From Mobula hypostoma (Eukaryota), in the NCBI RefSeq assembly GCF_963921235.1, contig NC_086108.1, forward strand, positions 34,598,001 through 34,662,000: a DNA stretch of 64,000 nucleotides, written 5' to 3'. Numbering within the stretch: the first letter of the stretch is position 1; each line of letters begins with the position of its first letter. The translations under genes were made by a program, and so were the position numbers. Below are positions 2,750-63,139 of the stretch, in pieces. The notes under the pieces were generated by a model. The model was not told the DNA's origin. It made no database searches and was given only the letters and a program-made list of their open reading frames with translations.

Positions 2750-3190
2750 AGCAGCATCTGTGGAAGAAAAGGGATAGTCACCGTTTCATGTTGAGACCCT
2801 GTGTCGGGACTGAGAGTGTAGAGGGAGGACTGTCGGTGTATAGAAGTGAGGGATAGTGGGAAATGGGGGCTAATAGGTGGAACAAGATGGCTGAGGCGCA
2901 GATGGTGCCAGGTGGGGAAAGGGGGAGGTGGAAGTGCTGAGACAATGGCTGGTGGGTGGAATCAGATAAAGGAAAGGAAATAGGCAGGTTGGTAGAGATT
3001 GGAAAGGTGAACAATTAAGAAGAAACACAGGTGGATAGGTATGTGGGTGATGGGCAGATTGAATCAGGTGGGGTAGATGTGAGTGAGGGAGGGATGAAAA
3101 AGGTGAGCAAAGGAGATGCACTGGTGGGAGTGGGGAAAGGAGCATGGGAAGTGAGTTATATGAATCTGGAAAAGTCAACGTTCTTACTTT
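2750..3190 (-). mobile_element. Penelope-like element terminal repeat/3' region with decayed hammerhead motif
   Basis: Minus strand agtcccgacacagggtctcaacatgaaacggtgact...cagatgctgc is homologous to the termini at 20740-21650 and 54380-54515. Purine-rich spacer is typical of the family. Confidence 0.6.
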
Positions 3191-19164: not shown

Positions 19165-20739
19165 AACTACAGCATAGCACCCAAGCACCTCTAGTCAATG
19201 CTCTGACTGCAGGCTAGCATGCCAACTGCCTTCTTCACCATCAACTTTCAGGGACCCATGTACTTGTACTCCTCAGTACTATTGTTCTGCAACACTCCCC
19301 AGGACCAAAATAATTCACTGTAAAAGCCTTACTCTGGTTCGACATCCGAAAATATACCTCACACTTAACTGTTTTGAACACCATTTGCCATTCCTGAGCG
19401 TAGTTACCCTGCTAGTCAAGATATCCTTGTAATTTTTGATGACCTCCTTCGCTGTGTATGACACCTACTTTTCCTGAGGCCCAGTACTGAAAACCAGCGG
19501 TTGTATCCAGAGGAGCTCTGGCCAAAGTTGTCTACACTGGAAACGTGATCAGTTCCCCCATTATGTTAAAGCTTCTTAAAAGGTGCAAAGGTTTCTTTAA
19601 TTAAAATAAAAAGTGCTGGAACTATTCAGCAGGTTAGGGTAGAGACTGAGAGAAAATAAAGGAAAGAGCAGATAGCAAAGGATTGTTAATTGCAATTGAT
19701 CTGTATGAAGGAAGTGTAAATAGAGGGAAATGTTTGGGAACAGCTTTCCATTGCACTTATGCAACATCTTCCCACCATCCAGGAATCCAAACTGTCCTCC
19801 TCAGTTGAAGCACTAACTCACTTCCAGCTCAGAATCATGTAGTCAATGTTCATGCAGTTTCTTACCCATGGGGTGGTGTTTGTAAAGCAGTCACTCAGTG
19901 CGGTTTGCATGGCTGTTTGATAGAACCCTGCTGCTCCATCTGCAAGGATGACCCTCAGCACCCAGTGGCCTGTCACATCAATTTTCCACCCCTTTTCAGA
20001 CTGACATCCATCTGCTCTTGCATTCTTCCAACAAGCTGGCAATAAATTGAACGCATTACTCTTTATATTCCATATTCCACCTACTGCCTTGGGATTCAAC
20101 ATTGAATTCAACCATTCCACAAAACCAGCATTTCCAGTCTTCTCTTTGTGTTCCACTGTGTTCTAAATCTCACAGCTCCAGCATCATACTGTTTTTTTTT
20201 TGTCATGTGCCCTCCTTCATCTTCTTCTACTTCCATCCCCTTCCAACAGATCCACTGCAGTTACCGGAACATCATCGCCATCCCTCAGTCAGCGCCAGTT
20301 GTTTCTTTATCCACTGGTGCTAACTTCAGTGTCTTCAGCATTTTCTGATTTTATTTCATAACACTTGAACAGTCTTTTTTTCTTTTGGTCGCCAGGGTTC
20401 CATCTGCTGATCCCATCTGCATGTTACTTTAACAAGAATATCAAAACCCCTTTCCTATTCACAAGTTCATCTATTGTTGACATTCACTATTGGGGAAACA
20501 TCGTTATTTTTCTGCTGAAGGACCTCTGCCCACAACAACATCTGTACTTTTTTCCATGGATGCTGACTGGCCAGCATTTTGTGTGTGATGCTTGGATTTC
20601 CAGCATCTGCAGATTTTCTCTTGTTTGTGATTGTTATTTTCCTGTCATGTATCCAAACTTTGGTTCCCTATCCATTACCACTTTTATATCCATCTGCTGT
20701 ATGGTTGTCTACAATCCATTTCCCTTCATAATGATGAGA

Positions 20740-21650
20740 AAGTCTGCTGTTGCTAGAAATCCAAAACAACACGCACAAAATGCTGGAGGAACTCAGCAGG
20801 CCAGGCAGCATCTATGGAAAAGAGTAAACAGTTGAAGTTTTGGGCCAAGACCCCTCAGCAGGACTGGAACAAAAGATGAGAAGTTAGATCAAGAAGAGGT
20901 AAAAAGCCAGAGTGGGAATAGAGGGAAAAAAAGGGGAGGGGAACTTCTTTTTACTGGAAGGAGAAATCAATATTCATGCCATCAGGTTGCAGGTACCCGG
21001 ATGGAAAATAAAGTGTTGCTCTTCTATCCTGAGGGTGGCCTCATCTTGGTACAAGTAGAGGCCATGGACTGACATGTCAGAATGGGAATGGGAATTGGAA
21101 TTAAAATGTTTGGCCACCAGGAAGTTCACTTTTGGTGGATGGTGTGGAGATGCTCGATGAAGTGGTCCCTCAATTTATGTTCCCTCCATGATTCCCTTGT
21201 CCATTTATCCCTTCCCCACTAATATCCCTCCTGGCACTTATCCTTGCAAGCAACCTAAGTGCTACACCTGCCCATTCACTTCCTTCCTCACCTCCATTCA
21301 GTGCCCCAAATAGTCCTTCCAGGTGAGGCAACACTTCACCTTTGAATCTACTTAGGTTGTCCATTGTGCTTGGTGCTCCCAATGCGAACTCCTCTACATT
21401 CTGAGACACGTCGTAAGTTGGGGGACCACTTCATCAAGCACCTCTGCTCCATCCTCCAAAAATGGAACTTCCCACTCCCCAGGTTTCACCTATCACCTTC
21501 CAGCTAGTCTCTTTCCCCTCCCCACACCCTCTTATTCTCGAGTCTTGCCCTTTCCTTTTCAGTCCTAAAGAAAGGTCTCGACCCAAAAGGTCAACAGTAC
21601 ATTCATTTCCATAGATGCTGGCTGACTTCCAGCATTTTGTGTGTGTGCTG
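20740..21650 (+). mobile_element. Penelope-like element: inverted 3' segment plus GIY-YIG endonuclease remnant and terminal repeat
   Basis: 21230-21450 translates GTYPCKQPKCYTC...SFQVRQHFT.ES..VVHC.WCSQCELLYI..RKLGDHFIKHL (GIY-YIG). 20740-21170 is the family's 3' region in inverted orientation. Hammerhead relics at 20830-20866(-) and 21561-21596(+). Confidence 0.85.
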
Positions 21651-32705: not shown

Positions 32706-32960
32706 TTCAAGCAACACACATAAAAATTGCTGGTGAATGCAGCAGGCCAGGCAGCATCTATAGGAAGAGGTACAGTCGATGTTTTGGGCCAAGACCCTTT
32801 GTCAGGACTAACTGAAAGAAGAGATAGTGAGAGATTTGAAAGTGGGAGGGGGAGGGGGAGATCCAAAATGATAGGAAAAGTCAGGAGGGGGAGGGATGAA
32901 GCTAAGAGCTGGAAAGTAGATTGGCAAAAGGGATATGAGAGGATCAGGGGACGGGAGGCC
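32706..32960 (-). mobile_element. Penelope-like terminal repeat with hammerhead relic
   Basis: Minus strand: agtcCTGACAAagggtcttggcccAAAAcatcgact...gatgctgcctggcctgctg. Confidence 0.8.
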
Positions 32961-36461: not shown

Positions 36462-36529
36462 TACAGCAAACTATGCAAATACACAAAAAATGTAATAAAT
36501 TTAAAAAACTAATATGAGAACATAAGTTC

Positions 36530-36670
36530 ACAAGCAAGAGAAAACCTGCAGATGCTGGAAATCCAACTTACACACACAAAATGCTGAAGGGTTTCGGCCC
36601 AAAACATTGACTGTACTTTTTTCCATGGATGCTGCTTGGCCTGAGTTTCTCCAGCATTTTGTGTGTTGCT
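36530..36670. mobile_element. Head-to-head pair of Penelope terminal-repeat fragments
   Basis: cacacaaaatgctg on the left is complementary to cagcattttgtgtg on the right. Hammerhead relic tgaagggtttcggcccaaaacattgact at the junction. Confidence 0.7.
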
Positions 36671-37512: not shown

Positions 37513-38820
37513 CAGGTGTCCCCCGCTTTTCGAATGTTCGCTTTATGACACCTCGCTGTTACGATAGACCTACATTAGTTACCTGTTTTCGCTAACAGAA
37601 GGTGTTTTCACTGTTACAAAAAAAGGCAGCGCACGCCCCGAGCAGCTAAGCTTCTCCCCCAGAAATGCATTCTAGCCGGCATTGCTTAAACATGTATCTG
37701 TGAGCATCTGTGCTTTATGTCAATGTATTTTGAGCATCCGTTAGCAAGATGAGTTCTAAGGTATCGGAAAAGCCTGAACGACCTGGTAACGGTGTTACAC
37801 TTAGCGTAAAACTAGACATAATTAAGCGTTTCGATCGTGGTGAACGAATTAAGGACAAAGTGAGTTTGGCTTGTGAAAGTTGATGAAGATGATGTTGAAG
37901 AGGTTTTGGCGTCCCATGACCAAGAACTGATAGATGAAGAGCTGATGCAATTGGAAGAGGAAAGGATAACAATTGAAACCAAATGCAGTAGCAAACGGAC
38001 CGAAAGTGAAGTCGTCCAGGAACTGGACGTGAAGCAACTGCGTGAGATTTTCGCTGCAATTATTGCAGAAAAGTACAACTTTAATTATGAAAGGGTACGT
38101 AGGTTTAGGGCATATTTGCAGGATGGTTTGAGTGCTTACAAAGAACTGTATGATAGAAAACTCCGTGAGGCTAAGCAGTCAAGCATACTGTCGGTTTTCA
38201 AGCCTTCCACATCAGCCACAGCAGATGACGAACCTCGACCTTTGACAGTGAGGCAGGCAGACAGAGAAGAAGATGACCTGCCTGCACTGATGGAAACAGA
38301 CGAAGATGAGATGACACCCCAGTGTCCCACCATCCCTACCTCCGAGTACTCAGCCTAACACACCATCATCAGTGTGCTCGCTGTCTTCCCGATTCCAGTA
38401 GGTGATATTATGCTGTACATACATTATTTCTACTTTATATAGGCTGTGTATTTTTATGTGTTATTTTGTATGATTTGGCAGCTTCGTAGCTTAAAGGTTA
38501 CTGGAGAGGGTGTTTCTGCCGAGAGTGCTTGTGTGAGATTTTCGCTACGGTGGTGGACAGTACAGCAATGATTGCAGAAAAGAATTTCTACTTTATATAG
38601 GCTGTGTATTTATCATATCATTCCTGCTTTACTATATGTTACTGTTATTTTAGGTTTTATGTGTTATTTGGCATGATTAGGTAGGTTATTTTTTGGGTCT
38701 GCGAATGCTCAGAAATTTTTCCCATATAAATAAATGGTAATTGCTTCTTCACTTTATGACATTCCGGTTTACGAACCATTTCGTAGGAACGCTCTATCTT
38801 CGGATGGCGGGGGAAACCTG
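37513..38820 (+). mobile_element. Internally deleted Tigger/pogo transposon (copy 2)
   Basis: TA|CAGGTGTCCCCCGC...GCGGGGGAAACCTG|TA. ATG at 37749 gives MSSKVSEKP..VTLSVKLDIIKRFDRGERIKD (CENP-B-type HTH start), joined out of frame to the C-terminus VDEDDVEEVLASHDQELIDEELMQLEE. The DDE domain is absent. Confidence 0.92.
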
Positions 38821-38829
38821 TATTTATTT

Positions 38830-42159: not shown

Positions 42160-42906
42160 ATTATTTTGGAGGACCTGTACTGGGCCCGGCATATCAGTGT
42201 AATTATGAAGAAAGCACAGCAGCATCTCTACTTCCTTAAGAGTTTACAATGATTCTGCATGACATCTAAGACTTTGACAAACTTCTATAGGTGTGTGGTG
42301 GAGAGTATATTGACTGGATGCATCACATCCTGGTAGGGAAACACCAATGCCCTTGAATGGAAAATCTTGCAAAAAGCAGTGGATACGGCCCAGTTCATCA
42401 CAGGTACAGCCCTCCGAACTATTGTACATTTACATGAAGCGTTGTCACAGGAAAGCAGCATCTATCATCAGGGACCACCAAACCATCCCCCCACCACCCC
42501 CACCCTCTCTTCTCGCTGCTGCCATCAGGAAGAAGGTACAGGAGCCTCCGGACTCATACAGGTTCAGGAACAGTTATTACCCGTCAACTATCAGCACTCA
42601 ACTTCACTTGCCCCATCATCAAAAAGCTCTCACAACCTATGGACTCACTTTCAAGGATTCTTCATCTCATGTTCTTGATATTTATTGCCTAATTATTTAT
42701 CATTATTATTATTATGTCTTTCTTTCTGCGTTTATACAGTCTGTTGTCTCATAACGATTGAATCCCTAAGTTGGTGTGGTCTTATTGATTCTATTATGGT
42801 TATTATTGTATCATGGATTTATTGAGTAGACCTGCAAGAAATTGAAGCTCAGGTTGTATATGTTGACATATATGTACATTGATAATAAATTTACTTTGAA
42901 CTTTGA
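42160..42906 (+). mobile_element. Rex1/Babar-type LINE 3' fragment
   Basis: Colinear with 17075-17840 (KTLTNFYRCVVESILTGCI; RCHRKAASIIRD; RFRNSYYPSTI). Same tail. Confidence 0.85.
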
Positions 42907-44074
42907 AATCTAAAACACAACTATGAATGATCAATCAGGCAAGTTTAACTGGAGAGAATGTATTCAGTGACAAAAGCAGTTGCTTATCCTGTGTTCTGCA
43001 GAAAAAAATGTTTTATCTGATGGATTTATGTTACAAAGTCAAAGTAAAATCATATTTAATTCTTTTAAGCAATATTCTAATATCTTTGGTGTCTAAAGTT
43101 TAGCTGAGGCTAAACCAGATCTGATTCATGTTCCCCTCAAAGGAGGATCTCTCACGTGAACACACAGACAGAATGGTTTTCCTTTTTATCAGTGGGGCAA
43201 GGGAACTATTATGACATTTACAAATCTCACCCAAATGATTCATTTTCATTGCAACACCCTAAAATGCAAATTTACAGATGGAATTCATAATCTCAAATCT
43301 TCCCATGCAAATTCTGTGCCCAGGGATTGTTAAATTATTGTTCACTCCCTATTTACATGATTATTGACATATAACCAATGGCAAAAATGCTGATTGAAGA
43401 GTAAGCCTTGTTTCATTTGCAAGACAAATGATTGAGTAACACTGCAGTGAACATTAACTGTTCAGGGTGTTCAACTGGAACCTGGAAATGAGTCCGTATT
43501 CTAAGCTGGCAGGAAATAGAATTTAATTGCATAGTATTTTATGGGCCTCAGTTATGAATTGAGTGACCAAGAAAGGATTTAAATCACTTCTTTAGAAAAA
43601 AAATAACGCATATCTGGTTTACTAATTTGAACAATTTAACATGATTTCTAGTTCTTCAACCTATTCTTCAACTATTGACCACTAGTATTCTAGAGAAGAG
43701 GAAAATAAGTCAGTGTGGGGGAGTATAAAGACATTAAGGCAATTCTGTGGCAAGCACCAAAGAATTGGGGCAAACAAGTGCTTGATACAAAGAAGCATGG
43801 ACTGACGTCTTCAAAAGTTGACTGTCGTAATGGTGGTTTTGTTGTAAAAGAGAGCGTGAATAATGGAGCACAATTTTGCCATTCAGAGCCTGCCAGCTAA
43901 AGAATGCTGCAGAAAGGAAAAAAGTCAAAGTTGAGTTTATTATTGTATGCACGAGTATGTACACACAGGTGAAATGAAAAACTTACTTGTAGCAGCATTC
44001 ATAAGGAAAATATAAACATAAATTTTGCAAAGAAGAATGCAATTACAATAAAAAATAGCAAAGTATATTTTATA

Positions 44075-44236
44075 AACACAAGAGATCCTGCAGATTCTGG
44101 AAATCTTAAATGCTGGAGCTCATTAGGTCAGACAGCATCTATGGAGAGGAATAAGCAATTGATGTTTTGAGTCGATTGCTGATTCTGAAAGATAGACTGT
44201 TTATTCCTCTCCACAGATTCTGCCTGACCTGCTGAA
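44075..44236. mobile_element. Palindromic pair of Penelope terminal-repeat fragments
   Basis: aggtcagacagcatctatggagaggaataagca on the left is complementary to tgtttattcctctccacagattctgcctgacct on the right. Confidence 0.7.
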
Positions 44237-44819
44237 AGTTCATTTTAGTGTGAACTGATCAAAGTGATCATAGCTTTGCTAAACTCTGGTGATCTTGTGC
44301 CAGTTGATTTAAGAAATCACATTAATTAATGAATTCACCAGGCATGTTGTACATAGCAAGGTCCCACAAAATGAAATGAATTTATATTGATGCATAGGTT
44401 GTGATCAAAGTTTTCAAATGTAGAGGAAGCAGGCTTAATTTATTTTTCTGGTATTGTTGGTTCATTGGTAAAGACTACAGTCTCCACTGGGGCTACATTT
44501 CCAATGATGCCTGAGACTTGCTAAGCTTCCTTGGCGCCTGTGTACAATGCTCCTTCGGTCAACATATTCTGGATAGATCATGAAACCATATATTTCACTT
44601 CTTTTATGTCTTTTACATTTGTTTTTCACCTTGAATGTGATTCTGGAAATGTTGAAGCCTGTGATTTGCAGTTTGGAGATTGTTTGGGTGTTTCAGCACT
44701 CTGCAGTCTCCAACAGTATTCTCGTGGTGAGAATACTGTGGGACGGGGTACGAGCCAGTGTTTGACTCCATTTCTCCAATGAAAGCTTCCACTGTTGGCC
44801 ATTTAAAGTGACAAAGGGG

Positions 44820-46385: not shown

Positions 46386-49307
46386 AATATTTGACAGTTA
46401 ATTACCTTCCTTGCTGACTTCGTAGTGGTACGTGCAGAGCTGTGGGACAGTCAAGACGTGTCCTGAAGAAGTTGATCACGATGCCAGTTCATCATCATGC
46501 CCTGGTTCACCACTGCCCCCAGTTCCTTCCACCTAATCCTTGGCACTGCAGAGATTTGATCAGAGGGTCACATCCCCAATGGAGAGACCTAGGGTAGCTT
46601 GCTCATATGAGCATGGTTTTATTTCCTCCCCAGGAAAGGCAAGTATAAGCTCATGGAAAATAATTGTTTATTAAATCAAACCAACACAATTTTATATACT
46701 TTTTAATTCAATTGATGGAATTTACCTACAAGTGGGTATAACTAGTAATGAGCTGGATGTGGTTACAAGCCGGCGTCTTGGTAGAAATGAATGGTAGAAA
46801 TAATTTTCCCACTTGCTTTTGTTGAAGCTGTCTTAAACCCATTAAACCAAATAATAAATGTTTGCGTCAGTTACATTTTATGGGCATGGTATACCTTTGG
46901 ATATAATGAAATTTAAAACACAGTTAGACTTGTCAGGTTTGTCACAGCTGTGCGACTAGTGGTTTGATATGGTATTACAGCGTAGTATTTGGCTGCCCTG
47001 TTTTAAAAGTAGAGTGCCAGAGAGAATAGTTGTCAGCGACAACAGATAAGCCGTTAGTATTGTGCATTTGTATTGCTAATTGAATCTTTAATGTTTTACT
47101 GCACCACTGTTTCCTGGGCTGAAGTAATTACACGACCCAAATACATCCATAATAATTACAATCTCTGATGAATATTGCGAAAGATCTATTAACTGCAAAG
47201 TCCTCTCTGCTTCATAGACTCAACAACTTTTTGTTACGACTGACTGATCAGCACTGCTTTTCAGAAGCAGCCAAGGAATGTAAAATCTGCTTCAAAGGCC
47301 TTGTGCTTTTGAATTTAGCTCTGCAGTTTATGATATGGTAATACACATTTACGAATTAATTCTGCTTTGGTCTGATAAAGTTACAAAACCAAAGATGTGC
47401 TTGGCTGCATTGCCACTGACTGACAGAGGCCAGTACTGGAGAAAGACCAGCACAGGCTGTTTATATCAAACCATATAGATAAGCAACATGCTGCAAACAA
47501 TCCTGAGACAAATTCCTGGAACGCTGCTGGAACAAACGCTTTTTCAGCGTAATCAAAAAGATTCAGTTCAGTTCGAAGGCCAAGGTTGAGCCTTTGGCTC
47601 TTTTCCACTTTGTTACTTCTTGCTGGCAGCTCTCTGAATTTCACAAGTGAACAGTCATTTCATTCTAATAACACTGTCCCACTTGCTGTACAGTCAAGAA
47701 TTGACATTCGGATTTTTCTATTGCCTTTGCAACTACAGTATAAAGGGATTTTTCTTAATGGCTGGTATGTCTTTGTGTTCCTGAAAATAATCATTGTTCT
47801 TCCTTGAGAAACGTTTGAAATCTTGGGTACAATTGTTGCCATCGGAATTGTTTATTTACACATTGACTGTGTCTCACAGCTCTATATGATCCACTGAATT
47901 TCTCATCACCATCTTTTCACACTTCGATGTGTCACGTCAGTGTTCTGTGATGTTTTAACTGTCTACTGGTAAGATTTGTGATTACATGAGAAGGAGCCAG
48001 TCCTAGCCACTGGCACAAGCACGTGTGTTTGCCTGGAGGGACACTCTGACCCTTTTGCATTGACACTGCGTTTCTGAAATGTGCTTGGCACTACACACTG
48101 GTACAGTTGTGTTTGTGTGCCGGCTGTGCGTGGACCACAGCACATAGCTCTTTCAAATAGTCATACTGTCTCTAATGCATTAGTAAGATGGAGAGAACCC
48201 TTTTCTATAAAGGGAGAGACTGCTTTGTTCTGTCATTGCAAACCAATCTCAGGAGCAGCCTGGAAGAAATTGCAGGAATCAACTACAAAAAAAACGTGGG
48301 GAAACTTTCCTGGGTTTCCTGTAAAATTCCAATGAAAATCCATCAGTTTGAAACATTAATTCTCCCTCCTGTCTTTTTGAGTATTTCCATTATTTACAGT
48401 TTTGAAAACCCAGGTCTCAGCCAGCCAAACAGCCCTTGAGGAAAGAGAAGTAAATCATTGTTACAGGTCAGTGACTCTTCCTCAAACCTGAGAGGAAGAG
48501 TAGAGGGCTTACAGTTTTCAAAACTATATGGAAGTTAAGACCATAAAGAGCATGACCAGTGCCTTTGCTAGAGGTACTTTAAAAGGGGGGGAGGGGTGAG
48601 ATAGGAGCATAAATATCATGATGGTAAATGATGACAGCAGTTTACCCAAAGTTGGAAAAATCAATGTTTATTCCAGAAGGCGGCAAAGTATCTCAATGGA
48701 AGAGAAGATGGTGTTTGGACAACGAAGGAAGCCACAAGTAGACAGATCAGAATGGGAATGGGATTAAGAGTTAATGTATGCTTTGTTTTGAGACCAACAC
48801 CGGTGAATGGCAAGCTTTAATGGGTGTGCATTAGAGAGTAGACTGTAGAGGAGGATAGAAGGTAGATGAGGGAAAGTAGAAACAGATTCCAGCTGAGATG
48901 TTCTTACTGGCCCTGGAGCTGCTACCGAGCTACTTGCAGGCAAAATTATAGTTATTGACTCGTCAAGGGTATCTGAAACAGCATGTGAAGTGAAAGATTT
49001 AGGCTTCTGTTATTTTCATTTGTCTAAAGTACCCAAGTTAGCATATCCTCCCCACCTCCCATCTTGTCCTTCATCCCCACTAATGGTTCTCTTTCTCACC
49101 TCCTTTACTTATCAATATATAGCACTGGTGTTGCTGCTTATTGGTGCACAGAGTTTGTCAAACAACCAATCAGCGTCGAGAATCCCTGCCCATGTCACAA
49201 CTAAGTTGATGTAACGATGACCAATCAGATGACTGCTAAGTATATAAAGGCCAAGCATTCAGAGGACACACCACATCTTTGGTCAAAGATGGGAGGGTAA
49301 AGTGTAG

Positions 49308-50094: not shown

Positions 50095-53000
50095 GCCCAC
50101 AACTACCCCTACACCTCCTCCCTCACTACCATTCAGGGTCCCAAACGGTCCTTCCAGGTGAGATGAAACATCACCTGTGAGTCTGCTGGGGTCATCTGCT
50201 GTGTCCAATGCTCCCGTTGTGGCCTGCTGTATATCAGTGAGTCGCAACATAGATTGGGAGACTGCTTCATCAAGCACCTTCGCTCCGATCACCTCAAAAA
50301 GCAGGATTTCCCGGTACCCACCCATTTCAATTTTATTTTTCATTCCCACTCCGACACGTCAGTCCATGGCCTCCTCTACTGCCACGATGAGACCACACTC
50401 AGGCTGCAGGAGCAAGGCCTTATATTCCATCTGGGTAGCCTCCATTCTGATGCCATGAACATCGACTCCTGGTAGTTGCCCTCCCTCTCCTTTACCATTC
50501 CCCATTCCTGTTTCCCTCCCTCTCCTTTACCATTCGCCATTCCTGTTTCCCTCTCTCACTTTACCATTCCCCATTCCTGTTTCCCTCTCTCACTTTACCA
50601 TTCCCCATTCCTGTTTCCCTCCCTCTCCTTTACCATTCCCCATTCCTGTTTCCCTCCCTCTCCTTTACCATTCCCCCCCTCTCCTTTACCATTCCCCATT
50701 CCTGTTTCCCTCTCTCACTTTACCATTCCCCATTCCTGTTTCCCTCTCTCACTTTACCGTTCCCCATTCCTGTTTCTCTCTCTCACTTTACCGTTCCCCA
50801 TTCCTGTTTCCCTCCCTCTCATTTACCATTCCCCATTCCTGTTTCCCTCCCTCTCCTTTACCATTCCCCATTCCTGTTTTCCTCCCTCTCCTTTACCATT
50901 CCCCATTCCTGTTTCCCTCTCTCACTTTACCATTCCCCATTCCTGTTTCCCTCCCTCTCCTTTACCATTCCCCGTTCCTGTTTCCCTCTCTCACTTTACC
51001 ATTCGCCATTCCTGTTTCCCTCCCTCTCCTTTACCATTCCCCATTCCTGTTTCCCTCCCTCTCCTTTACCATTCCCCATTCCTGTTTCCCTCCCTCTCCT
51101 TTACCATTCCCCATTCCTGTTTCCCTCTCTCACTTTACCATTCCCCATTCCTGTTTCCCTCCCTCTCCTTTACCATTCCCCATTCCTGTTTCCCTCTCTC
51201 ACTTTACCATTCCCCATTCCTGTTTCCCTCTCTCACTTTACCATTCCCCATTCCTGTTTCCCTCCCTCTCCTTTACCATTCCCCATTCCTGTTTCCCTCT
51301 CTGACGTTACCATTCCCATTCCTGTTTCCCTCTCTCACTTTACCATTCCCCATTCCTGTTTCCCTCTCCTTTACCATACCCCAATCCTATTTCCCTCTCT
51401 CACTTTACCATTCTCCATTCTTGTTCCCCTCTCTCACTTTACCATTCCCCGTTCCTGTTTCCCTCTCTCACTTTACCATTCCCCATTCCTGTTTCCCTCC
51501 CTCTCCTTTACCATTCCCCATTCCTGTTTCCCTCCCTCTCCTTTACCATTCCCTATTCCTGTTTCCCTCCCTCTCCTTTACCATTCCCCATTCCTGTTTC
51601 CCTCTCTCACTTTACCATTCCCCATTCCTGTTTCCCTCCCTCTCCTTTACCATTCCCCCCCTCTCCTTTACCATTCCCCATTCCTGTTTCTCTCTCTCAC
51701 TTTACTGTTCCCCATTCCTGTTTCCCTCCCTCTCCTTTACCATTCCCCATTCCTGTTTCCCTCTCTCACTTTACCATTCCCCGTTCCTGTTTCCCTCTCT
51801 CACTTTACCATTCCCCATTCCTGTTTCTCTCTCTCACTTTACCGTTCCCCATTCCTGTTTCCCTCTCCTTTACCATTCCCCATTCCTGTTTCCCTCCCTC
51901 TCCTTTACCATTCCCCATTCCTGTTTCCCTCTCTCACTTTACCATTCCCCATTCCTGTTTCTCTCTCTCACTTTACAGTTCCCCATTCCTGTTTCCCTCT
52001 CCTTTACCATTCCCCATTCCTGTTTCCCTCCCTCTCCTTTACCATTCCCCATTCCTGTTTCCCTCCCTCTCCTTTACCATTCCCCATTCCTGTTTCCCTC
52101 CCTCTCCTTTACCATTCCCCATTCCTGTTCCCCTCTCTCACTTTACCATTCCCCAATCCTGTTTCCCTCCCTCTCCTTTACCATTCCCCATTCCTGTTTC
52201 CCTCTCTCGCTTTACCATTCCCCATTCCTGTTTCCCTCTCTCACTTTACCATTCCCCAATCCTGTTTCCCTCCCTCTCCTTTACCATTCCCCATTCCTGT
52301 TTCCCTCTCTGACGTTACCATTCCCATTCCTGTTTCCCTCTCTCACTTTACCATTCCCCATGCCTGTTTCCCTCCCTCTCCTTTACCATTCCCCATTCCT
52401 GTTTCCCTCTCTCACTTTACCATTCCCCATTCCTGTTTCTCTCCCTCTCCTTTACCATTCCCCATTCCTGTTTCCCTCCCTCTTCTTTACCATTCCCCCC
52501 CTCTCCTTTACCATTCCCCATTCCTGCCATTCCTGTTTCCTCTCTGTTCTACCATTCGCCATTCCTGTTTCCCTCTCTCACTTTACCATTCCCCATTCCT
52601 GTTTGTCTCCCTCTCCTTTACCATTCCCCATTCCTGTTTCCCTCTCTCACTCTACCATTCCACATTCCTGTTCCCCTCTCTCACTTTATCATTTCCCATT
52701 CCTGTTCCCCTCTCTCACTTTACCATTCCCCATTCCTGTTTCCCTCTCGCACTTTACTATTCCCCATTCCTGTTTCCCTCCCTCTCCTTTACCATTCCCC
52801 ATTCCTGTTTCCCTCTCTCACTTTACCATTCCCCATTCCTGTTTCTCTCCCTCTCCTTTACCATTCCCCATTCCTGTTTCCCTCCCTCTTCTTTACCATT
52901 CCCCCCCTCTCCTTTACCATTCCCCATTCCTGTTTCCCTCTCTCACTTTACCATTCCCCATTCCTGTTTGTCTCCCTCTCCTTTACCATTCCCCATTCCT

Positions 53001-54515
53001 GTTTCCCTCTCTCACTCTACCATTCCACATTCCTGTTCCCCTCTCTCACTTTACCATTCCCCAATCCTGTTTCCCTCCCTCTCCTTTACCATTCCCCATT
53101 CCTGTTTCCCTCTCTCGCTTTACCATTCCCCATTCCTGTTTCCCTCTCTCACTTTACCATTCCCCAATCCTGTTTCCCTCCCTCTCCTTTACCATTCCCC
53201 ATTCCTGTTTCCCTCTCTGACGTTACCATTCCCATTCCTGTTTCCCTCTCTCACTTTACCATTCCCCATGCCTGTTTCCCTCCCTCTCCTTTACCATTCC
53301 CCATTCCTGTTTCCCTCTCTCACTTTACCATTCCCCATTCCTGTTTCTCTCCCTCTCCTTTACCATTCCCCATTCCTGTTTCCCTCCCTCTTCTTTACCA
53401 TTCCCCCCCTCTCCTTTACCATTCCCCATTCCTGTTTCCCTCTCTCACTTTACCATTCCCCATTCCTGTTTCTCTCTCTCACTTTACTGTTCCCCATTCC
53501 TGTTTCCCTCCCTCTCCTTTACCATTCGCCATTCCTGTTTCCCTCTCTCACTTTACCATTCCCCATTCCTGTTTGTCTCCCTCTCCTTTACCATTCCCCA
53601 TTCCTGTTTCCCTCTCTCACTCTACCATTCCACATTCCTGTTCCCCTCTCTCACTTTATCATTTCCCATTCCTGTTCCCCTCTCTCACTTTACCATTCCC
53701 CATTCCTGTTTCCCTCTCGCACTTTACTATTCCCCATTCCTGTTTCCCTCCCTCTCCTTTACCATTCCCCATTCCTGTTTCCCTCTCTCACTTTACCATT
53801 CCCCATTCCTGTTTCTCTCCCTCTCCTTTACCATTCCCCATTCCTGTTTCCCTCCCTCTTCTTTACCATTCCCCCCCTCTCCTTTACCATTCCCCATTCC
53901 TGTTTCCCTCTCTCACTTTACCATTCCCCATTCCTGTTTGTCTCCCTCTCCTTTACCATTCCCCATTCCTGTTTCCCTCTCTCACTCTACCATTCCACAT
54001 TCCTGTTCCCCTCTCTCACTTTATCATTTCCCATTCCTGTTCCCCTCTCTCACTTTACCATTCCCCATTCCTGTTTCCCTCTCGCACTTTACTATTCCCC
54101 ATTCCTGTTTCCCTCCCTCTCCTTTACCATTGCCCATTCCTGTTTCCCTCTCTCACCCTTTGTCCTTACCTGCTTCTAGTGCTCCTGCCCCTTCCCTTTT
54201 ATCCATGGTCTTTCACCCTCTCCTATCAGGTTCACCCTTTATCTTTTTCACCAATCAACTTCCCAGTTCTTTACTTCATCCCTCCCCTTCTCCAGGTTTC
54301 ACCTATCACCTACCACCTACCACCTTGTATTTCTTCTTCCCCAATCCCCTTCTCCTTACTCTGATCTCTCCTCTGCCTTTCTAGCCCCAATGAAGGGTCA
54401 CGGCCCAAAACATTGACTGTTGGATCTTTTCCATGGATACTGCCTGACCTGCTGAATTCCTCCAGCATTTTGTGTGTGTTGCTTTGTATTTCCATCTGCA
54501 GGTTTTCTCGTGTTT
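50095..54515 (+). mobile_element. Penelope-like element 3' portion (GIY-YIG remnant plus terminal repeat) expanded by an internal minisatellite
   Basis: 50100-50475: TIQGPKRSFQVR*NITCESAGVICCVQCSRCGLLYISESQHRLGDCFIKHLRS and HSDTSVHGLLYCHDETTLRLQEQGLIFHLGSLH. The element resumes at ~54150 and ends with a hammerhead relic and cagcattttgtgtgtgttgc. Confidence 0.88.
50476..54152. repeat. ~3.7-kb minisatellite of interleaved 35-bp and 34-bp units
   Basis: Units CCCTCCCTCTCCTTTACCATTCCCCATTCCTGTTT (35 bp) and CCCTCTCTCACTTTACCATTCCCCATTCCTGTTT (34 bp), about 105 copies. Confidence 0.97.
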
Positions 54516-55169: not shown

Positions 55170-56950
55170 AGATACAAGAAATCTGAATCAAGTGATCAAG
55201 AGGTCCACCAGGCCAATTCCAGGGAGGAGAGGATTGAGAGATATCATCGGCAACCCAGCCTGGGGCGGCAAGGCCTCGGCTCTGCACACTTGCAACAATG
55301 GGAGAGTGCAAGTGCAAGGGTTAGGGATGACACGGTCCACGGTCCACGGAACCGTGAGGACAAAAGTCAGTTATCGAAGGCAGTGCAGTTGGGGTAACAG
55401 GGTGCCTGGACAAAATGGGATCTTCCCAAGTGCAAGATCAATTGGGCTGAGCTTTGGAGACTGGAGCCCTTCCGCATTTCTTTCCTCCTGCAGTCTGTGT
55501 ATGACACTCTCCCTGCACCATCACAGCTGCACACAAAGGGGCTGAGAGAGGACCCTAACTGCAAGCTTTGTGGTCAGCAGTGTTCACTGGCACATGTGCT
55601 ATCAGGATACAAAACAGTTTAACACAAGGACAGTATAGGTGGTGCCACGACAAGATTCGGCTGTCCCTGGTTGATACACTGGAATGGGAGAGGTGTAAAA
55701 GGAGACCGGCTGGCAGAGCGGCAAACAGGGCAGTCATTTTCATCAAGGAGACAGCCATGCCAGTCATATCAAAGAGGCCTAAATCCAATCTGCTGCAAAC
55801 TGCCAATTCCTGGGAGATTTGGGTCAATGTGGGGAGGAAGCTATCGTTCCCGGAAGTGGTGCAAACCACACTTCGACCAGACATCATACTGTGGTCCAGT
55901 GAATACAAGAGAATCATCCCGGTGGAGTCTGCAGTACCGTGGGAGGAAGGTTGTGAGACAGGGTTGCCAACTGTTCCATGTTAGCCAGGACATCCCGTAT
56001 ATTGGGCTAAATTGGTTTATCCCTTATGGGTCCACCCTTGTCCCGTATTTCCCCCGCTAAGGCAGAGTGTTCCTATTAAACCGTTCGTAAGCCGAAATGG
56101 TGTAAAGTGCAGAAGCAATTACCGTTAATTTATATGGGAAAAATTTTTGAGCATTCCCAGACCCAAAAAATAACCTACCAAATCATACCAATGACACATA
56201 AAACCTAAAATAACACTAACATATAGTAAAAGCAGGAATGATACGATAAATACATGGCCTATATAATGTAGAAATAATGTATGTACAGTGTATCAGAATC
56301 GGGAAGATTAAGCCAAAACCGATTTATAGAAAAAAATCAGCATGTACACATATGTGCACGTCACGTATGTGCACGTCATGTATGCACACGTCACGCCTGC
56401 GCACACAGGTGCCCGCGCAAGGCTTCATGGTGGTGTTTCTCGGGGTAAACACAAGTGTCGCGTATTTGACTGCTACTTTTGTCCCTTATTTGGGAGTGAG
56501 GAAGTTGGCAACCCTAATGTGAGGAGTCCCACTAAAGGAAAGCCGTGAAGTACCAGTCCTTAGTCCAGGAGTTCAGGGACAAAGGATGGCAGACGTGACT
56601 ATTCCCCATGGAGATTGGCTGTCGAGGGTTCCTGGCAAGGTCAACATGGAGGTTGCTGTCTGTGCTGGGCCTTGAAAAGAGCAAAAACCAAGCAGGTCAC
56701 AGGATGGGGGAGGAAGCAGGAGGAGCCTCTTGCTGGGTGTGGAGCAGGCGAGAGGAGTTGAGCTGGAAGTCAGGAGCAGATGGGCAGTGACTTGGCCACC
56801 ACTGCTGACCTGCCAACTGGAGAGTGTAGTGGCTAACTGTCGAGACATTCGATGAAGATTGGGCACCACCAGAAAACATCTGCTCCTGTCTGAAGGCTAC
56901 GTTGACTTCATCAGGTAACTAAAGAGAGCACCCCGGTGCATGAGCAAATG
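55170..56950 (+). mobile_element. HERO-type (R2-group, RLE endonuclease) non-LTR retrotransposon, 5'-truncated
   Basis: Fragments: LRDIIGNP..GRQGLGS, QGAWTKW..WAELWRLEPFRISFLLQSVYDTLP, CKLCG..SLAHVLSG (zinc knuckle), YRWCHDK, LRPDIILWS..VPWEEGC, KYQSLV..GW..FPMEIGCRGF, ASCWVWSRR. Confidence 0.85.
55959..56516 (+). mobile_element. hAT MITE (558 bp) carrying a Tigger end fragment, inserted in the HERO endonuclease domain
   Basis: ttgtgaga|CAGGGTTGCCAAC...GTTGGCAACCCTA|atgtgagg gives an 8-bp TSD with 2 mismatches. 56048-56305 matches the Tigger end at 8501-8990. Confidence 0.88.
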
Positions 56951-56952
56951 AG

Positions 56953-57300
56953 TAACGCACACAAAATGCTGGAGGAACTCAGCAGGTCATGCATCATTTT
57001 TGGAAATGAATATGTAGTCGACATTTCAAGCCGAGACAATTAATCAGGACTGGAAAGGAAGGGGGAAGAAGTCGTAATAGGAAGATGGGGGGGCAGGGGG
57101 GATAGGGGAAGGAGCATAAAAAAGAAAGTGATAGGTGAAGCCAGGTGAGGGGGAAGATGAATGGGGGAGGGGGCTGGTGAAAAACCAGGACGTGATGGGT
57201 GGAAAAGGCGAAGGGCTGAAGAAAGAGGTACGAAAGGAGAGTGGACCATGTGAGAAAAGGGAGGAGGGGATCCAGATGGAGGTGATAGATAGGTCAGGAA
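56953..57300 (-). mobile_element. Penelope-like terminal repeat with hammerhead relic
   Basis: Minus strand agtcCTGATTAattgtctcggcttGAAAtgtcgact; plus strand cacacaaaatgctggaggaactcagcaggtca. Confidence 0.8.
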
Positions 57301-57960: not shown

Positions 57961-59521
57961 GAAGACCCAGAGACATCAACTGTCCATTTCCTTCCAGAGA
58001 TGCTGCCTGACCTGCTGAGTTCTTCCAGCGTGTTGTGAGTGTCTTCTTTGCTTCTCCGGGTTCCAGCATCTGTAGTTTCTTGTGCATGCCCATTAAGAGA
58101 TTAGGTGGCCCATTTTTCTATTTTCTTGGGTTTCTCATGTTGGACATGACTAGTCCTCGTCCATATTTGGGGCATGGTTAAGAATGCATTCTGAGCATTT
58201 CATCCTGTGGTGAAAGAAAGATTCATGTTCTGAGTTTTGTGTGGTGGTGTTGGTAGTAGTTGTGTGGAGCAAAGAGCTTTGAAGAATTAAAATGCAACCA
58301 GTTTTCATTAGAGAGGGGATATGGTCCAGGATGTGAAGACTGGAAGATATAGATATGTCTATGAAGTTGGAGCATGTGATTTGACTGCTTTCACCAGAGT
58401 ACAGGAAATAAGCATAAAGTAAACTACAAAATGGTGGAAGCACTTGGGTCAGGTAGCATCTGTGGGAGGAGAAATGGATTTGAAATTTCAGGTCAAAGAG
58501 CTTACATCTAAACCAATGACTTGCATCATTGACCTGAGAAGTTTTTCTCTCCACAAAGGCAATCTGATCTTTCGAGTACCCCAGCATTACCTGTTTTTAT
58601 TTCAGGTTTCCAGCATCTGCAGCTTTGACTTTCAACCAAATTAATCAGCTTGTAGAGGGTTCAGAGATTGAAAAGAATTTCTTCCTCCTGTCCCCATGGT
58701 ATCAGAATATGCACCGTCGAGAAAGCAGCTGACTGAAGGAGTTGGTTAAGTATTGGTTGGCAAGTTATGAAGAAAAGTGTATGCACCAGAGATAAATTAC
58801 TCCACAGAAAATTGTGATTCATGGAAATATCAACTATTAGCATATCCAGTTAGGACTGAATAATGTAGATTGTTTCATATGACTGATGTTGATTTCTTGC
58901 TCAATTATCTTCAGGGTCACAGAGCAATTTCATAGAGCTTCATCTTTGTCAGTATTGCTTTTCTGGTTGTGTAGATGTCCCAGGAGAGGAAATTAACATC
59001 GAGAATGTCCATAAGTAAGCAGATTGTGCATGGTCTGTTAAAAGGAGCTGCATCTTTAAGCTAACTGGAAAATTTTGTCCCTTAGACCTTGAACTGCAAC
59101 TTTGCAAATAGATCTGCAAAGCAGTAGCCAAGTTGTGAAGGCACTACAAACAGCAATGCTGGAATAACCCAATATCACAAACTGACATGGTCCTTCAGTA
59201 TGGAGCCTTTCAAATGTCTTCTTCAGTTTCTGATAACTCCGCCTTTATCTGAACTGACCAGTAGTCTGGGTTACTGGCTCAGTACTTTTATTCTTCATTA
59301 GCATAACCCAACCTGCTTCTTTGTCACTCTCCCTCTGTGCCATTAATAATTCATCTCCATTGGCACTTTGGCCTAGATCTACAACAGATACACCCTTGCT
59401 CTATCCATTCCTGCCCGCCTTCCATCCAGTTTGAAACTAATGTTTTCATTCTTTGTCTCAGTTTTGATGAAGAGTCCTCAACCTTTGCTCTATGCAGATG
59501 TTGCCTGATCTCTCAGATCAT

Positions 59522-60004: not shown

Positions 60005-60530
60005 TCAAAGTTCAAAGTAAATTTATTGTCAAAGTGTGTATATGTCACCACATACTTGCTCAAGATTCACTTTCTTGCAGGGATCTGCAGGGAAAAAGAG
60101 AAATGCAATAGAATTTTACAAAAAAAACTGACAGAAGACTGACAAACACCAATATGCAAAAGAAGGCAAGTTAACGCAGGAAAGGTACTGCGAACATGCG
60201 TTGTAAAGAGTCTTTGAGTCTGTAGGTTGTAGCATGGTTTCGGAGTAGCACTGAAAGAAGTTAACTTTGCCAGTTCAAAAACTGGATGGTTGTAGAACTG
60301 TTCCTGAACCTGGTGGCTGGCATCTTAGGCTCCTGTACCTCCTGCCCAATGGTAGAAGCAAGAGGAGAGCATGGCCTGGATGGTGGGGGCATTTGATGAT
60401 GGATGCTGCTTTCTTGTGACAGCGCTGTATGTAAATGTACTCAATGGTGGAGTGGGCTCCACCTGTGATGGAATGGACTGTACTCACCCGCTTTCTGTAG
60501 TCCTTTATGCTCTTGAACATTGTCAGGTAG
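60005..60530 (-). mobile_element. Rex1/Babar-type LINE 3' fragment
   Basis: Minus ORF IEYIYIQRCHKKAASIIKCPHHPGHALLLLLPLGRRYRSLR; reverse tail ttcaaagttcaaagtaaatttatt. Confidence 0.8.
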
Positions 60531-61854
60531 TACACTCTCCACTGTGCATCTAGAGAAGACTGCATCTTTGGAATATGTCTCAGGATCCTCTCCCTCTTGA
60601 TGAGAATGCTCTGGCGTGATAAAAACAATGTTTATCTATCTGTCTGTCCTGCTCCCATAGGCCATGCATGTCTTCTCTGTGGGAAGCATTTGAAATATTT
60701 ATTTATATCATCTAAACGAGAAACAAACATAAAAGAATGCAGATGCTGGAATCTGGAGTAACTGGTGGATCTCAGCGGGTTGAGAAGTACATCCAACTCA
60801 GTTCTTCCGTAGATTGCTGCATGAAACAATTTGCATTCCTGTCGAAAAATAGAAGAGGGCATGGGTCTGTGGAGAATGTTTGAGGTTACATATTCCATCT
60901 CTAGTTCGGCATCCATTCTTGTAAAATAATATCTACATTATTAGACCAAAATAACATTTGTGTGTGATTTCTACCTCTGTCGTTGCCCACTGTTGTCATC
61001 TGAAAACCCAGTGATGTTAATCAACAGAGATCTAATGGGACCAGCAGCCAGGCTGAGGCTTGCCAACAGCTGTTTCTGTCAGTGTGAACTTGTCTCCTGA
61101 ACAATTTAGCAGAGGGCGAATAAAATCTGATCTGAACGCTTCTTAGGATAGCAGTGTGTTCTAGGGGAGAAAGTCTGAAGTTTAACTTTGCCTGGTTTAC
61201 AAGGATGGTCTTCGAAATATTTCCACAAATGCTTTCTAAAAATATTTCCAAAGCAGCTTTGAGCAAAAGTCATTCAAGTGTATTTGAGATCTGAGACTAA
61301 ATGAAGGTAGAGCACTATACTGATGGTCTTTCATAATGATTTAAAACCACAAAAAAAATTGTTTCCTAACATTTGTTTTGCAGTCCTTTAGATATAGGGG
61401 AAACAGTTTGCTGCACACATTTACTTAATGAAAATCAAGTCTTAGCTTACTGACAGAAGAAATTACATTTGATATTGTTTGTATTTCTTCACTGTGCCGT
61501 CAATCAGAGAATGGAGCTGAAAAGGTCCTGCACTCCTGCACAACAAACAGGTCAGACACGTAAAAAGGTGCATGGGATCTGAGGGAATTTGGATCCAGAA
61601 TTAGCTCAGCATCAGGAAGCAGAGACTGACAGGTATTTTTATGACAGCAGTACAAGGCTCTGCAAAGATTAGAGCTTAGACTCTTGCTTTCTGCAGTTTA
61701 TATTGATGAGGCAGAGTCAAATGTAGGGGACATGATGAAGAGGTTTGCAAAACTTAAAACAAGATTAAGTGCATAGCTGACAGGAAGGAGGAATACTTTT
61801 GATTGGTTATTTGGGCACAGAAAGGTGACAAATTAAATTTAATCTAAAAAGATG

Positions 61855-62642
61855 TTCAAAGTAAATTATCAGAGTACGTATATGTCACCATATATCACCC
61901 TGAGATTCATTTTCTTGTGGGCATTCACAGTATAACAGAGAAATATAATAGAATCAGTGGAAAAACTATACCCAAAGTTTGGCAAGCAATCATTGTGCAA
62001 AAGATAATGACAAATACAAAAAAAATTAGTAAATAAATAATAATGAGAACATGAGTTGTTGAGTCCTTGAAAGTGAGTTCATAGGTTGTTGAATCAGTTC
62101 AGTGTTGAGGTGAGAGAAGTTATCTACGCTGGTTAAGGAACCTGATGATTGAAGGGTAAAAAATCTTCTTGTACCTAGTAGCATGAGACCTAAACCTCCT
62201 CTACCTCTTCCCCAATGACAGTAGCAAGAAGAGAGCATTATGGTGGGGTTCTTGATAATGAATGCTGCTTTCTTCTGATAACACTCTTTATTTGCTCAAT
62301 GGTGGGGAAGGCTTTTCCTGTGATGAACCAGGCTGTATCTACTACTGAATATAGGCTTTTCTGTTCTTGGGAATTGGACATTGGACATTCGTAACAGTCC
62401 GTGATGCAACCAGTCAGGATACTCTCTACTATGCATCTATAGAAGTTTGTCAGGATGTTAGTTGATATGCTGAATCTGTACAAACTTCTAAGATAGAAGA
62501 GGTGCTGCCTATATAATGACACTTGCTGGTCCAAGTATGGATCCTCTGAAAAGGAAATGCCAAGGAATTTTAAGTTACTGACCCTCTCCACCTCTGATCC
62601 CCAAATGAGGAATGGCTCATGAACCTCCGGTTTCTTCCTCCT
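61855..62642 (-). mobile_element. Rex1/Babar-type LINE 3' fragment
   Basis: Minus ORF ERVSNLKFLGISFSED...FYLRSLYRF..ILTNFYRCIVESILTGCIT. Confidence 0.85.
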
Positions 62643-62674
62643 GAAAAAAAAGATTAAACCCTAATTTGAATACC

Positions 62675-62710
62675 AATCCTGATGAAGGGTCTTGGCCTGA
62701 AACATCAAGT
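62675..62710 (+). ncRNA. Minimal type-I hammerhead motif in a Penelope terminal repeat (best-preserved core; repeat extends to ~62805)
   Basis: aatc-CTGATGA-AGG-gtcttgg-CCT-GAAA-CATC-aagt. Both catalytic boxes and stem II are intact; stems I and III are mutated. Confidence 0.7.
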
Positions 62711-63139
62711 CTTTAATCCTTTCCAGAGGTGCTGCCTGACCTGCTGAGTTCCTCCAGCATTTTGCACATGTTACTCTGGATTTTCAGCATCAGCAGAATC
62801 TGTTGCGTTGAGGATGAAGTGATGTATTATGGAAGATGCAGCAGGGAACGAAGTGAACATACAATAAATGGGAGGATATTGAGTAATGTAAAGGAGAGAT
62901 CTTAAGGCACATGTCCACAGATAAAATGGTAAAGTACAGCATGAACACTGGCATTTCCATAGCAATGTGAAAATATATGCAGGTATGTCCTTCTGCAATG
63001 AACAGGACATTTCCATTCTTGCTAATTAGTAATTGCTCTGAATCATAAGCAAAATAATGAGAATTGTTGTCAACTGGATTATCAAATGGCACTTAGACAC
63101 CAATAACCTAACCACAAATGCTAAGTTTGGATCTTGCAA

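What the first reader, a model, noticed from the sequence alone, without database searches (positions are those of the whole stretch)
62675..62710. Dispersed minimal hammerhead ribozymes in Penelope terminal repeats
Seen: related motifs at ~2776-2811(-), 20830-20866(-), 21561-21596(+), 32774-32809(-), ~36585-36612(+), 54383-54418(+), 57016-57052(-) and 62675-62710(+). Their consensus is AGTC-CTGATGA-AGGG-TCTCGG-CCC-GAAA-CGTC-GACT: stem I AGTC/GACT, both catalytic boxes, stem II, and a loopless palindromic ACGT in place of stem III. Known: Penelope-like elements carry minimal type-I hammerheads thought to cleave as dimers. Inference: this very abundant repeat has seeded roughly one hammerhead relic per 8 kb here. 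Every copy has lesions, many at CpGs, so the ancestor may be active while these copies are not.
Basis: partly seen in the sequence, partly recalled or inferred. Interest (0 to 1): 0.7.

Follow-up and report, generated by a model that had tools for sequence, protein, structure and literature searches.

The report
Decayed Penelope-element minimal hammerhead relics
The motifs are real but ordinary: broken leftover copies of a small self-cutting RNA motif that Penelope-like jumping genes are already known to carry at their ends, scattered here through the DNA of what is probably a ray.

Summary
All eight motifs are present at the stated places and far beyond chance. They mark the 3' ends of 5'-truncated copies of a very abundant Penelope-like element (PLE). 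Three lie directly downstream of GIY-YIG endonuclease remnants whose closest proteins come from rays; the linker motif points to Neptune/Nematis, not Penelope/Poseidon. It fits the published minimal-hammerhead consensus of metazoan PLEs (Cervera & de la Pena 2014). Stems covary in a small alignment with relatives. All eight copies carry core lesions; CpG bases are hit three times as often as others, and the core decays no slower than its surroundings: relics. Corrections: family fragments number about 19, not 8; two motifs are arms of one inverted insertion; no ORF flanked by two repeats is in the window. Cleavage was not tested; folding favours an inactive dimer, and a published PLE hammerhead cut only with protein. 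This scan reported the same kind before, in this genome and three others. Known kind, low interest.

The parts
62675..62710 (+). Focal minimal hammerhead relic: stem I 62675-62678/62707-62710 (2 of 4 pairs left), CUGAUGA 62679-62685, extra A 62686, stem II 62687-62690/62695-62698, GAAA 62699-62702, palindrome broken (G16.2>A), former cut site after 62706
   Evidence: the only one of the 8 with both boxes intact
62673..62797 (+). Whole focal PLE fragment: 5'-truncated at the hammerhead, with the long 3' tail
2776..2811 (-). Hammerhead relic, most diverged copy (10 mismatches, 4 in the core); probably another or older subfamily
20508..20620 (+).
20830..20865 (-). Hammerhead relic (A6, G12, G16.2 lesions); minus arm of an inverted insertion, long tail to about 20740
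20960..21132 (-). GIY-YIG endonuclease C-terminal remnant about 95 nt upstream of the 20830 motif
   Evidence: tblastn with P0001, E 1e-17
21212..21477 (+). CX4CxxC linker and GIY-YIG remnant; plus arm of the same inverted insertion
   Evidence: tblastn E 7e-25; translation
21561..21596 (+). Hammerhead relic (G5, G12, C15.2 lesions); short tail to about 21654
32774..32809 (-). Hammerhead relic (G8, G12, G16.2 lesions) with 3' UTR upstream
36527..36668 (.). Small head-to-head inverted insertion: minus arm tail only (long), plus arm partial hammerhead 36585-36612 (short tail)
44073..44241 (.). Head-to-head inverted pair of partial hammerhead/tail fragments
48416..48722 (-). Old PLE copy: endonuclease C-terminus at 48722-48648 (weak match) and a heavily decayed hammerhead near 48490-48450
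   Evidence: tblastn E 0.002; nhmmer E 0.005
50107..50466 (+). Best-preserved GIY-YIG endonuclease remnant (one in-frame stop; 73% identical to P0001)
50475..54156 (+). 34/35-bp minisatellite of about 105 units, lying between the endonuclease stop and the rest of the 3' UTR of the same copy
54383..54418 (+). Hammerhead relic (U4, G5, G12, G16.2 lesions) ending the 50107-54509 copy; long tail
57016..57051 (-). Hammerhead relic (G8, C15.2 lesions; stem II 2 of 4 pairs) with about 250 nt of 3' UTR upstream
57966..58080 (+). Fragment with 3' half of the hammerhead and long tail
58426..58626 (.). Older head-to-head pair: minus arm 58496-58426 (short), plus arm ending at about 58626 (long tail)
   Evidence: (family D19); plus arm read by eye

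Best explanation
The motifs are dead copies of the minimal type-I hammerhead that sits in the 3' end (pseudo-LTR) of a very abundant C-terminal-endonuclease Penelope-like retroelement with a Neptune/Nematis-type linker, in an elasmobranch, probably a myliobatiform ray. Shown: the order endonuclease stop, pyrimidine-rich 3' UTR, hammerhead, tail, all in one sense; two preferred 3' ends about 30 nt apart; head-to-head inverted insertions; neutral, CpG-driven decay. Inferred: reverse transcription starts 60-100 nt downstream of the cut site and usually stops early, so nearly every insertion carries the hammerhead and little else. Since genomic copies run unbroken across the cut site, their templates were uncut or re-joined RNA. 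In the source element the motif has no helix III of its own; two copies in a tandem transcript would pair their ACGU palindromes to form a double hammerhead and cut after GUC, probably slowly and with help from the element's protein. After insertion, methylation-driven deamination at three CpGs that sit on working positions (11.1-12, 15.2-16.2, 17-1.1) disables most copies.
For: Motifs real and non-random. Endonuclease remnants upstream of 3 of 8 motifs, UTR homology upstream of 2 more. Closest proteins from Mobula and Hypanus, 71% and 64%; these match GIY-YIG just below the curated cut-off, and longer relatives match RVT_1. Corrected consensus from over 1,000 contigs per loose-end class in two DNA runs; 137,152 and 153,372 contigs laid. 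Match to the published consensus CUGANGAH-G..C-GAAA-palindrome-UH. 3 of 5 pattern-only metagenome hits have a PLE ORF upstream. Covariation 0/500 shuffles on three of five measures. Core and non-core decay alike, 10 of 76 against 17 of 140, p 0.83. Two 3' ends and inverted pairs match the PLE signature in PMC8557442.
Against: No cleavage assay. No RT remnant, full ORF or ORF flanked by two repeats in the window. The active double hammerhead scores -14.7 kcal/mol against -15.8 for two monomers and -28.5 for an inactive swapped dimer (the model ignores core tertiary contacts). Covariation rests on 11 sequences, with several stem II bases fixed by my search pattern; 2 of the 5 metagenome hits show 0-1 contiguous stem I pairs and 2 have no PLE ORF. 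No Rfam hammerhead match. Neptune against Nematis was not resolved; no tree with named references was built.
Confidence: 0.9

Rival explanations
1. The motif is a hammerhead-shaped RNA signal whose job in the element is not cutting (for example a fold that presents the nearby reverse-transcription start, or a passenger); even the source element's copy rarely cuts in vivo.
For: Genomic copies run across the cut site. Inactive dimer register is favoured in folding, helped by the GUCGAC palindrome (-10.3 against -3.1 kcal/mol for ACGU). In the anole Poseidon element, catalytic mutants did not affect insertion in vitro and no RNA-seq reads ended at the cut site (PMC11167929). Naiad PLEs proliferate without canonical hammerheads (PMC8557442).
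Against: Catalytic-core letters, including the extra base and the palindrome, are conserved across metazoan PLEs, and the anole motif does cut, with C3/G8 rescue, when the protein is present.
Confidence: 0.3
2. The short copies are an independent non-autonomous family (SINE-like or non-LTR retrozyme) that spreads on its own circular RNA, not truncated PLE ends.
For: Several copies are only 100-130 nt long. Retrozymes derived from PLE pLTRs are reported, including in one chondrichthyan (10.64898/2026.07.22.740005).
Against: 5' ends are ragged, from inside the hammerhead to inside the endonuclease, while 3' ends are fixed. No tandem array of the hammerhead unit in the window. No helix III.
Confidence: 0.06
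3. One or more copies here, the focal one in particular, have been kept by the host as working ribozymes or regulatory RNAs.
For: The focal copy keeps CUGAUGA, GAAA and all four stem II pairs.
Against: It has lost the palindrome, the closing C2.1-G1.1 pair and half of stem I. Its divergence is like that of the others, and the core decays at the background rate. No host gene family was found among 145 of 171 longest frames (a weak test for short exons).
Confidence: 0.02
4. The hammerhead likeness is accidental, produced by choosing CpG-corrected letters.
For: The plain majority of the 8 copies lacks GAAA; Rfam finds nothing.
Against: Independent contig consensus restores G12 and G16.2; intact cores with compensated stems occur downstream of related PLE ORFs.
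Confidence: 0.01

Closest known systems
Minimal hammerheads (min-HHR) of metazoan Penelope-like elements (Cervera & de la Pena 2014, PMC4209133)
   Same: Type I; CUGAUGA plus one unpaired base; G10.1-C11.1; GAAA; C15.2/G16.2 palindrome with no loop 3; short helix I; mostly dispersed single motifs from 5'-truncated elements; opposite-strand pairs 100-700 bp apart. The Acropora Neptune example has the same layout.
   Different: Stem II is short (4 bp). No cartilaginous fish is in the paper's Fig. S3 alignment or Table S1 as read. Abundance of the family appears far above the 4,000-9,000 motifs reported for coelacanth and Xenopus, but those counts were of intact motifs and mine are contigs of decayed copies.
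Poseidon element of Anolis carolinensis, PAc (Frangieh et al. 2024, PMC11167929)
   Same: Hammerhead in the pLTR; two 3' ends defining a 30-40 nt tail downstream of it; A/T-rich flanks.
   Different: Other clade (no CX2-5CxxC linker). In PAc the ORF starts inside the hammerhead; here the frame that opens in the tail matched none of 122 related proteins.
Neptune and Nematis clades of C-terminal-endonuclease PLEs (Craig et al. 2021, PMC8557442)
   Same: CX2-5CxxC linker before GIY-YIG (window 21212-21400; 87 of 96 homologs with a YxGET-type motif); 5' truncation; inverted 5'-truncated arm; tail at one end.
   Different: Clade not fixed by a tree; no full-length copy in the window.
Non-LTR retrozymes (Li, Clavereau, Pollet 2026, 10.64898/2026.07.22.740005)
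   Same: Type I hammerhead, PLE-derived, reported in one chondrichthyan.
   Different: Retrozymes are tandem units of fixed length; these are dispersed, ragged truncations still attached to endonuclease DNA.

Membership tests
Metazoan PLE minimal hammerhead (family consensus) | CUGANGA and GAAA boxes | tested here: met
   Loose-end consensuses from over 1,000 contigs; not met by the plain majority of the 8 window copies
Metazoan PLE minimal hammerhead (family consensus) | One unpaired base between 9 and 10.1; G10.1-C11.1 pair | tested here: met
   A in 7 of 8 copies and about 95% of depth at 20854; fold; feature from PMC4209133
Metazoan PLE minimal hammerhead (family consensus) | Palindromic 15.1-16.1 stretch with no loop 3, then NUH | tested here: met
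   ACGU then C in the contig consensus; palindrome intact in 0 of 8 window copies
Metazoan PLE minimal hammerhead (family consensus) | Helices I and II supported by covariation | tested here: met
   11 sequences: 80.8% paired against 67.5% shuffled, 13 double changes, 0/500; small set, some stem II bases fixed by the pattern; L002 and the truncated 36585 copy left out
Metazoan PLE minimal hammerhead (family consensus) | Sits downstream of a PLE ORF in the same sense | tested here: met
   3 of 8 window motifs; 3 of 5 metagenome loci
Metazoan PLE minimal hammerhead (family consensus) | Present in both pLTRs flanking a full ORF | tested here: inconclusive
   No full ORF or RT remnant in the window; no whole genome held
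Metazoan PLE minimal hammerhead (family consensus) | Cleaves as a dimer, not as a monomer | not testable with these tools
   Folding only; active dimer not favoured in the model
Active hammerhead ribozyme (the 8 window copies) | Intact 13-nt core and stems | tested here: not met
   8 of 8 have core lesions
Rfam hammerhead families | Score above threshold | tested here: not met
   No hammerhead hit in the window at E<=10 or in L001-L005 at E<=1
Neptune/Nematis PLE | CX2-5CxxC linker before a C-terminal GIY-YIG | tested here: met
   criterion from PMC8557442
Neptune/Nematis PLE | Placement in an RT tree with named clade members | not tested
   No named reference elements were at hand
Penelope/Poseidon clade | Linker Zn-finger absent | tested here: not met
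   Linker present
Non-LTR retrozyme | Tandem units each with a complete hammerhead | tested here: not met
   No such array in the window; rest of genome not searchable

The most novel reading that the evidence does not exclude
This ray family may carry hammerheads at a density high enough to burden the host, with CpG decay acting as a built-in off switch under selection. Three of the motif's four CpGs sit on working positions and are more decayed (3 of 24 intact) than the loop CpG (4 of 8 intact; p 0.047, post hoc). A crude independent-site estimate leaves about 1.5% of copies with an intact core; on a family of order 100,000 that is of order 1,000 loci that could cut host pre-mRNAs as dimers or with the element's protein. 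The host would then be purging intact sense-strand copies from transcribed DNA.
Probability: 0.07. Interest if true: 0.55.

Novelty: new member of a known kind. Interest (0 to 1): 0.12.

Why it matters
Little in itself: it adds a ray family to a kind of ribozyme described across animals in 2014, and the copies here are dead. Its use is as material. A family this abundant allows a well-powered test of whether intact hammerheads are depleted from the sense strand of introns, and whether 5' truncation points cluster at the cut site. Both bear on the open question of what PLE hammerheads do in vivo.

Tried and rejected
Rfam scans of the window and of five relatives: no hammerhead hit. A loose hammerhead descriptor on the window gave 4 matches against 5.2 expected, so the descriptor alone says nothing; only the focal copy among the 8 matched. 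The motif with up to 3 mismatches: 0 matches. No whole genome is held, so the genome-wide count of intact copies could not be made. Viral contigs: no pattern match and no protein relative. Pfam on the window's 102-aa endonuclease remnant alone: no GIY-YIG hit. Expression: no RNA holder listed; two runs guessed to be RNA laid 11,323 and 15,891 contigs, but contigs show neither strand nor ends, so nothing is concluded on expression or cleavage. Depth profile was not used as copy number or truncation profile, since it depends on likeness to one diverged copy. The idea that the frame opening in the tail is the start of the PLE ORF: no match among 122 related proteins; most of these lack their N-terminus, so it is open. 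The idea that 5' truncations cluster at the cut site: starts are scattered in the 21 regions aligned. Host gene search: 145 of 171 long frames against Pfam gave only two LINE-associated ALKBH8_N hits and one sub-threshold DUF. L002 was left out of the covariation alignment (no PLE ORF, 1 stem I pair, 55% GC). Lunse et al. 2017 on dimer cleavage is not held and is known to me only through a review passage. Earlier findings by sequence: none.

Full report
Setting. The window is CpG-poor animal DNA (CpG observed/expected 0.31) full of repeat fragments. No whole genome is held. The closest proteins to its best endonuclease remnant are annotated from Mobula hypostoma (71%) and Hypanus sabinus (64%), and further relatives come from sharks and marine invertebrates. 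The source is an elasmobranch, probably a myliobatiform ray (inference).

Observation. Seven full-length copies differ from the 36-nt motif at 5-10 places; the 36585 copy is cut short at its 5' end. The best match in any of 200 dinucleotide shuffles had 13 mismatches. Each copy is recovered by a profile built from the other seven at E 3e-7 to 3e-29. The family is denser than one per 8 kb: 19 of 22 profile hits have E<0.01, with none in the reversed window. The copies are not all separate events; 20830(-) and 21561(+) are two arms of one insertion.

Consensus. The correction is right. Laying public contigs on 20690-21170 placed 137,152 records from run X1 and 153,372 from X5; these are contigs, not copy numbers. 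Loose-end consensuses from 1,052-1,208 contigs each read through the region with the CUGAUGA box (ends at 20832) and with GAAA, the ACGU palindrome and GAC (ends at 20826). At 16.2 and 1.1 about half the depth shows G and, at 16.2, 45% shows the deaminated A. The fold has stem I AGUC/GACU and stem II GGGU/GCCC (pair probabilities 0.66-0.98), one unpaired A after A9, and no helix III. This fits the published consensus of metazoan PLE hammerheads in every listed feature (PMC4209133).

Link to Penelope-like elements. tblastn finds endonuclease remnants at 21132-20960(-), 21212-21477(+), 50107-50466(+) and, weakly, 48722-48648(-), each upstream of a hammerhead in the same sense. The query proteins match GIY-YIG just under the curated cut-off; longer relatives match RVT_1. 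Copies 32774 and 57016 share the pyrimidine-rich 3' UTR. The focal copy is only 62673-62797; its upstream flank is a different LINE-like relic on the other strand. No RT remnant was found with 122 related proteins, so 'terminal repeat' is inferred from the family, not seen. A CX4CxxC linker precedes the endonuclease in the window and in 87 of 96 homologs scored; by PMC8557442 (passages) that marks Neptune or Nematis and excludes Penelope/Poseidon.

Insertion signature. 3' ends fall near +60 to +79 and +91 to +98 or beyond from the cut site, and about 2,000 contigs per DNA run end at each of 20767 and 20774 with mixed A/T-rich flanks. Four head-to-head pairs (20740-21654, 36527-36668, 44073-44241, 58426-58626) have the long tail on one arm and the short end on the other (the last plus arm read by eye). 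PMC8557442 describes this inverted arm and one-sided 30-40 bp tail; PMC11167929 (main text) ties the tail to two reverse-transcription starts.

Outside check. A pattern for the hammerhead alone, run on the metagenome collection, gave 5 loci. Three have a PLE ORF upstream in the same sense. Stem I, which the pattern did not constrain, forms 5 and 6 contiguous pairs of different sequence in L003 and L005, 2 in L004, 1 in L002 and 0 in L001. On 11 sequences (7 window copies, 4 loci; L002 and the truncated copy left out), 80.8% of cells pair against 67.5% in shuffles, with 13 double changes; 0 of 500 shuffles reach three of the five measures, 26 and 45 reach the other two, and slid registers give 21-42%. 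The set is small and the pattern fixed some stem II bases.

State of the copies. All 8 have core lesions and none keeps the palindrome. CpG bases are changed in 25 of 64 cases against 27 of 216 elsewhere (p 7e-6). Non-CpG core and non-core bases decay alike (10 of 76 against 17 of 140, p 0.83), which gives no sign of selection to keep the core, on a small sample. G12, the general base (PMC6155905, passage), is lost in 5 of 8. The focal copy is the least damaged in the boxes, but has lost G16.2, the closing pair of stem I and half that stem; from general knowledge of the hammerhead it should not cut. Opposite-strand arms cannot supply each other as partners in one transcript (inference).

Mechanism. 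Shown: anatomy, linkage, truncation pattern, decay. Inferred: in a tandem transcript of the source element, two motifs pair their ACGU palindromes and cut after GUC. Against easy cleavage: the double hammerhead scores -14.7 kcal/mol, two monomers -15.8, and an inactive swapped dimer using the overlapping GUCGAC palindrome -28.5 (tertiary contacts ignored). Published results agree on weak activity: no monomer cleavage and low dimer cleavage for a Schistosoma motif; cleavage only with protein, and no need for it in insertion, for the anole element. Genomic copies cross the cut site intact, so their templates were uncut or re-joined.

Novelty. The kind was described in 2014. Searches for a report on shark or ray PLE hammerheads found none specific; a search on CpG decay of such motifs found none. 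The library lacks most subscription papers. A 2026 preprint reports hammerhead-bearing retrozymes in one chondrichthyan (parts 1-3 of 5 read; its supplements were not seen and may list this family). Of PMC4209133 I read parts 1-2 of 4 and parts 1-2 of 3 of supplement file 2; file 1 could not be searched. Of 10.1101/2025.06.08.657570 I saw passages and section 7, with no mention of Penelope. Lunse et al. 2017 was not available and is cited through PMC6765202 (passage). This scan noted the same kind four times before, once in this genome; those notes agree and are not counted as evidence.

Verdict. Observation confirmed, interpretation supported with corrections, new member of a known kind, interest 0.12. 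The boldest open reading is selection against intact copies, hinted only by a post hoc p of 0.047.

Noticed in passing
window 50475-54156: A 3.7-kb minisatellite of about 105 units of 34/35 bp lies inside one PLE copy, between the endonuclease stop and the rest of the 3' UTR; it may have grown from the UTR's first bases.
   Followed up: partly
consensus positions 16.2-1.3: A second palindrome, GUCGAC, overlaps the cut site and allows a self-duplex stronger than the ACGU helix III, a possible off conformation.
   Followed up: partly
window 20763-20812(-), 62724-62790(+) and other tails: Just after the hammerhead, a pyrimidine run ending in AG is followed by ATG and a short open frame kept in several copies; a splice acceptor or the element's ORF start are both possible. 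No match to related proteins.
   Followed up: partly
window 9103-9337: A near-perfect inverted repeat with 81-nt arms (93%) and further internal symmetry, inside a longer repeat also present inverted at 37511-38826.
   Followed up: no
window 62012-62660(-), 16734-17698(+), 42164-42754(+), 60278-60631(-): Related relics of a LINE-like family (ALKBH8_N hits in two of them); one abuts the focal hammerhead head to head.
   Followed up: partly
window 55559-55984(+): Open frame with an RPDIILWS stretch that recalls restriction-like-endonuclease retrotransposons (recalled; no Pfam hit).
   Followed up: no
window 37864-38358(+) and 39076-39450(-): Open frames that resemble DNA-transposon remnants (Tigger-like and hAT-like; recalled, no Pfam hit).
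   Followed up: no
L004 203-3530(+): An 820-aa open RT-endonuclease PLE frame with an intact minimal hammerhead about 840 nt downstream, in a metagenome contig.
   Followed up: partly
L005 2043-2069(-): Intact minimal hammerhead with a 6-bp stem I but no PLE ORF in the 2.4-kb contig.
   Followed up: no
P0002, P0006, P0110: PLE protein fragments are annotated as isoforms of host genes in ray genomes, probably read-through of gene models into the element.
   Followed up: no
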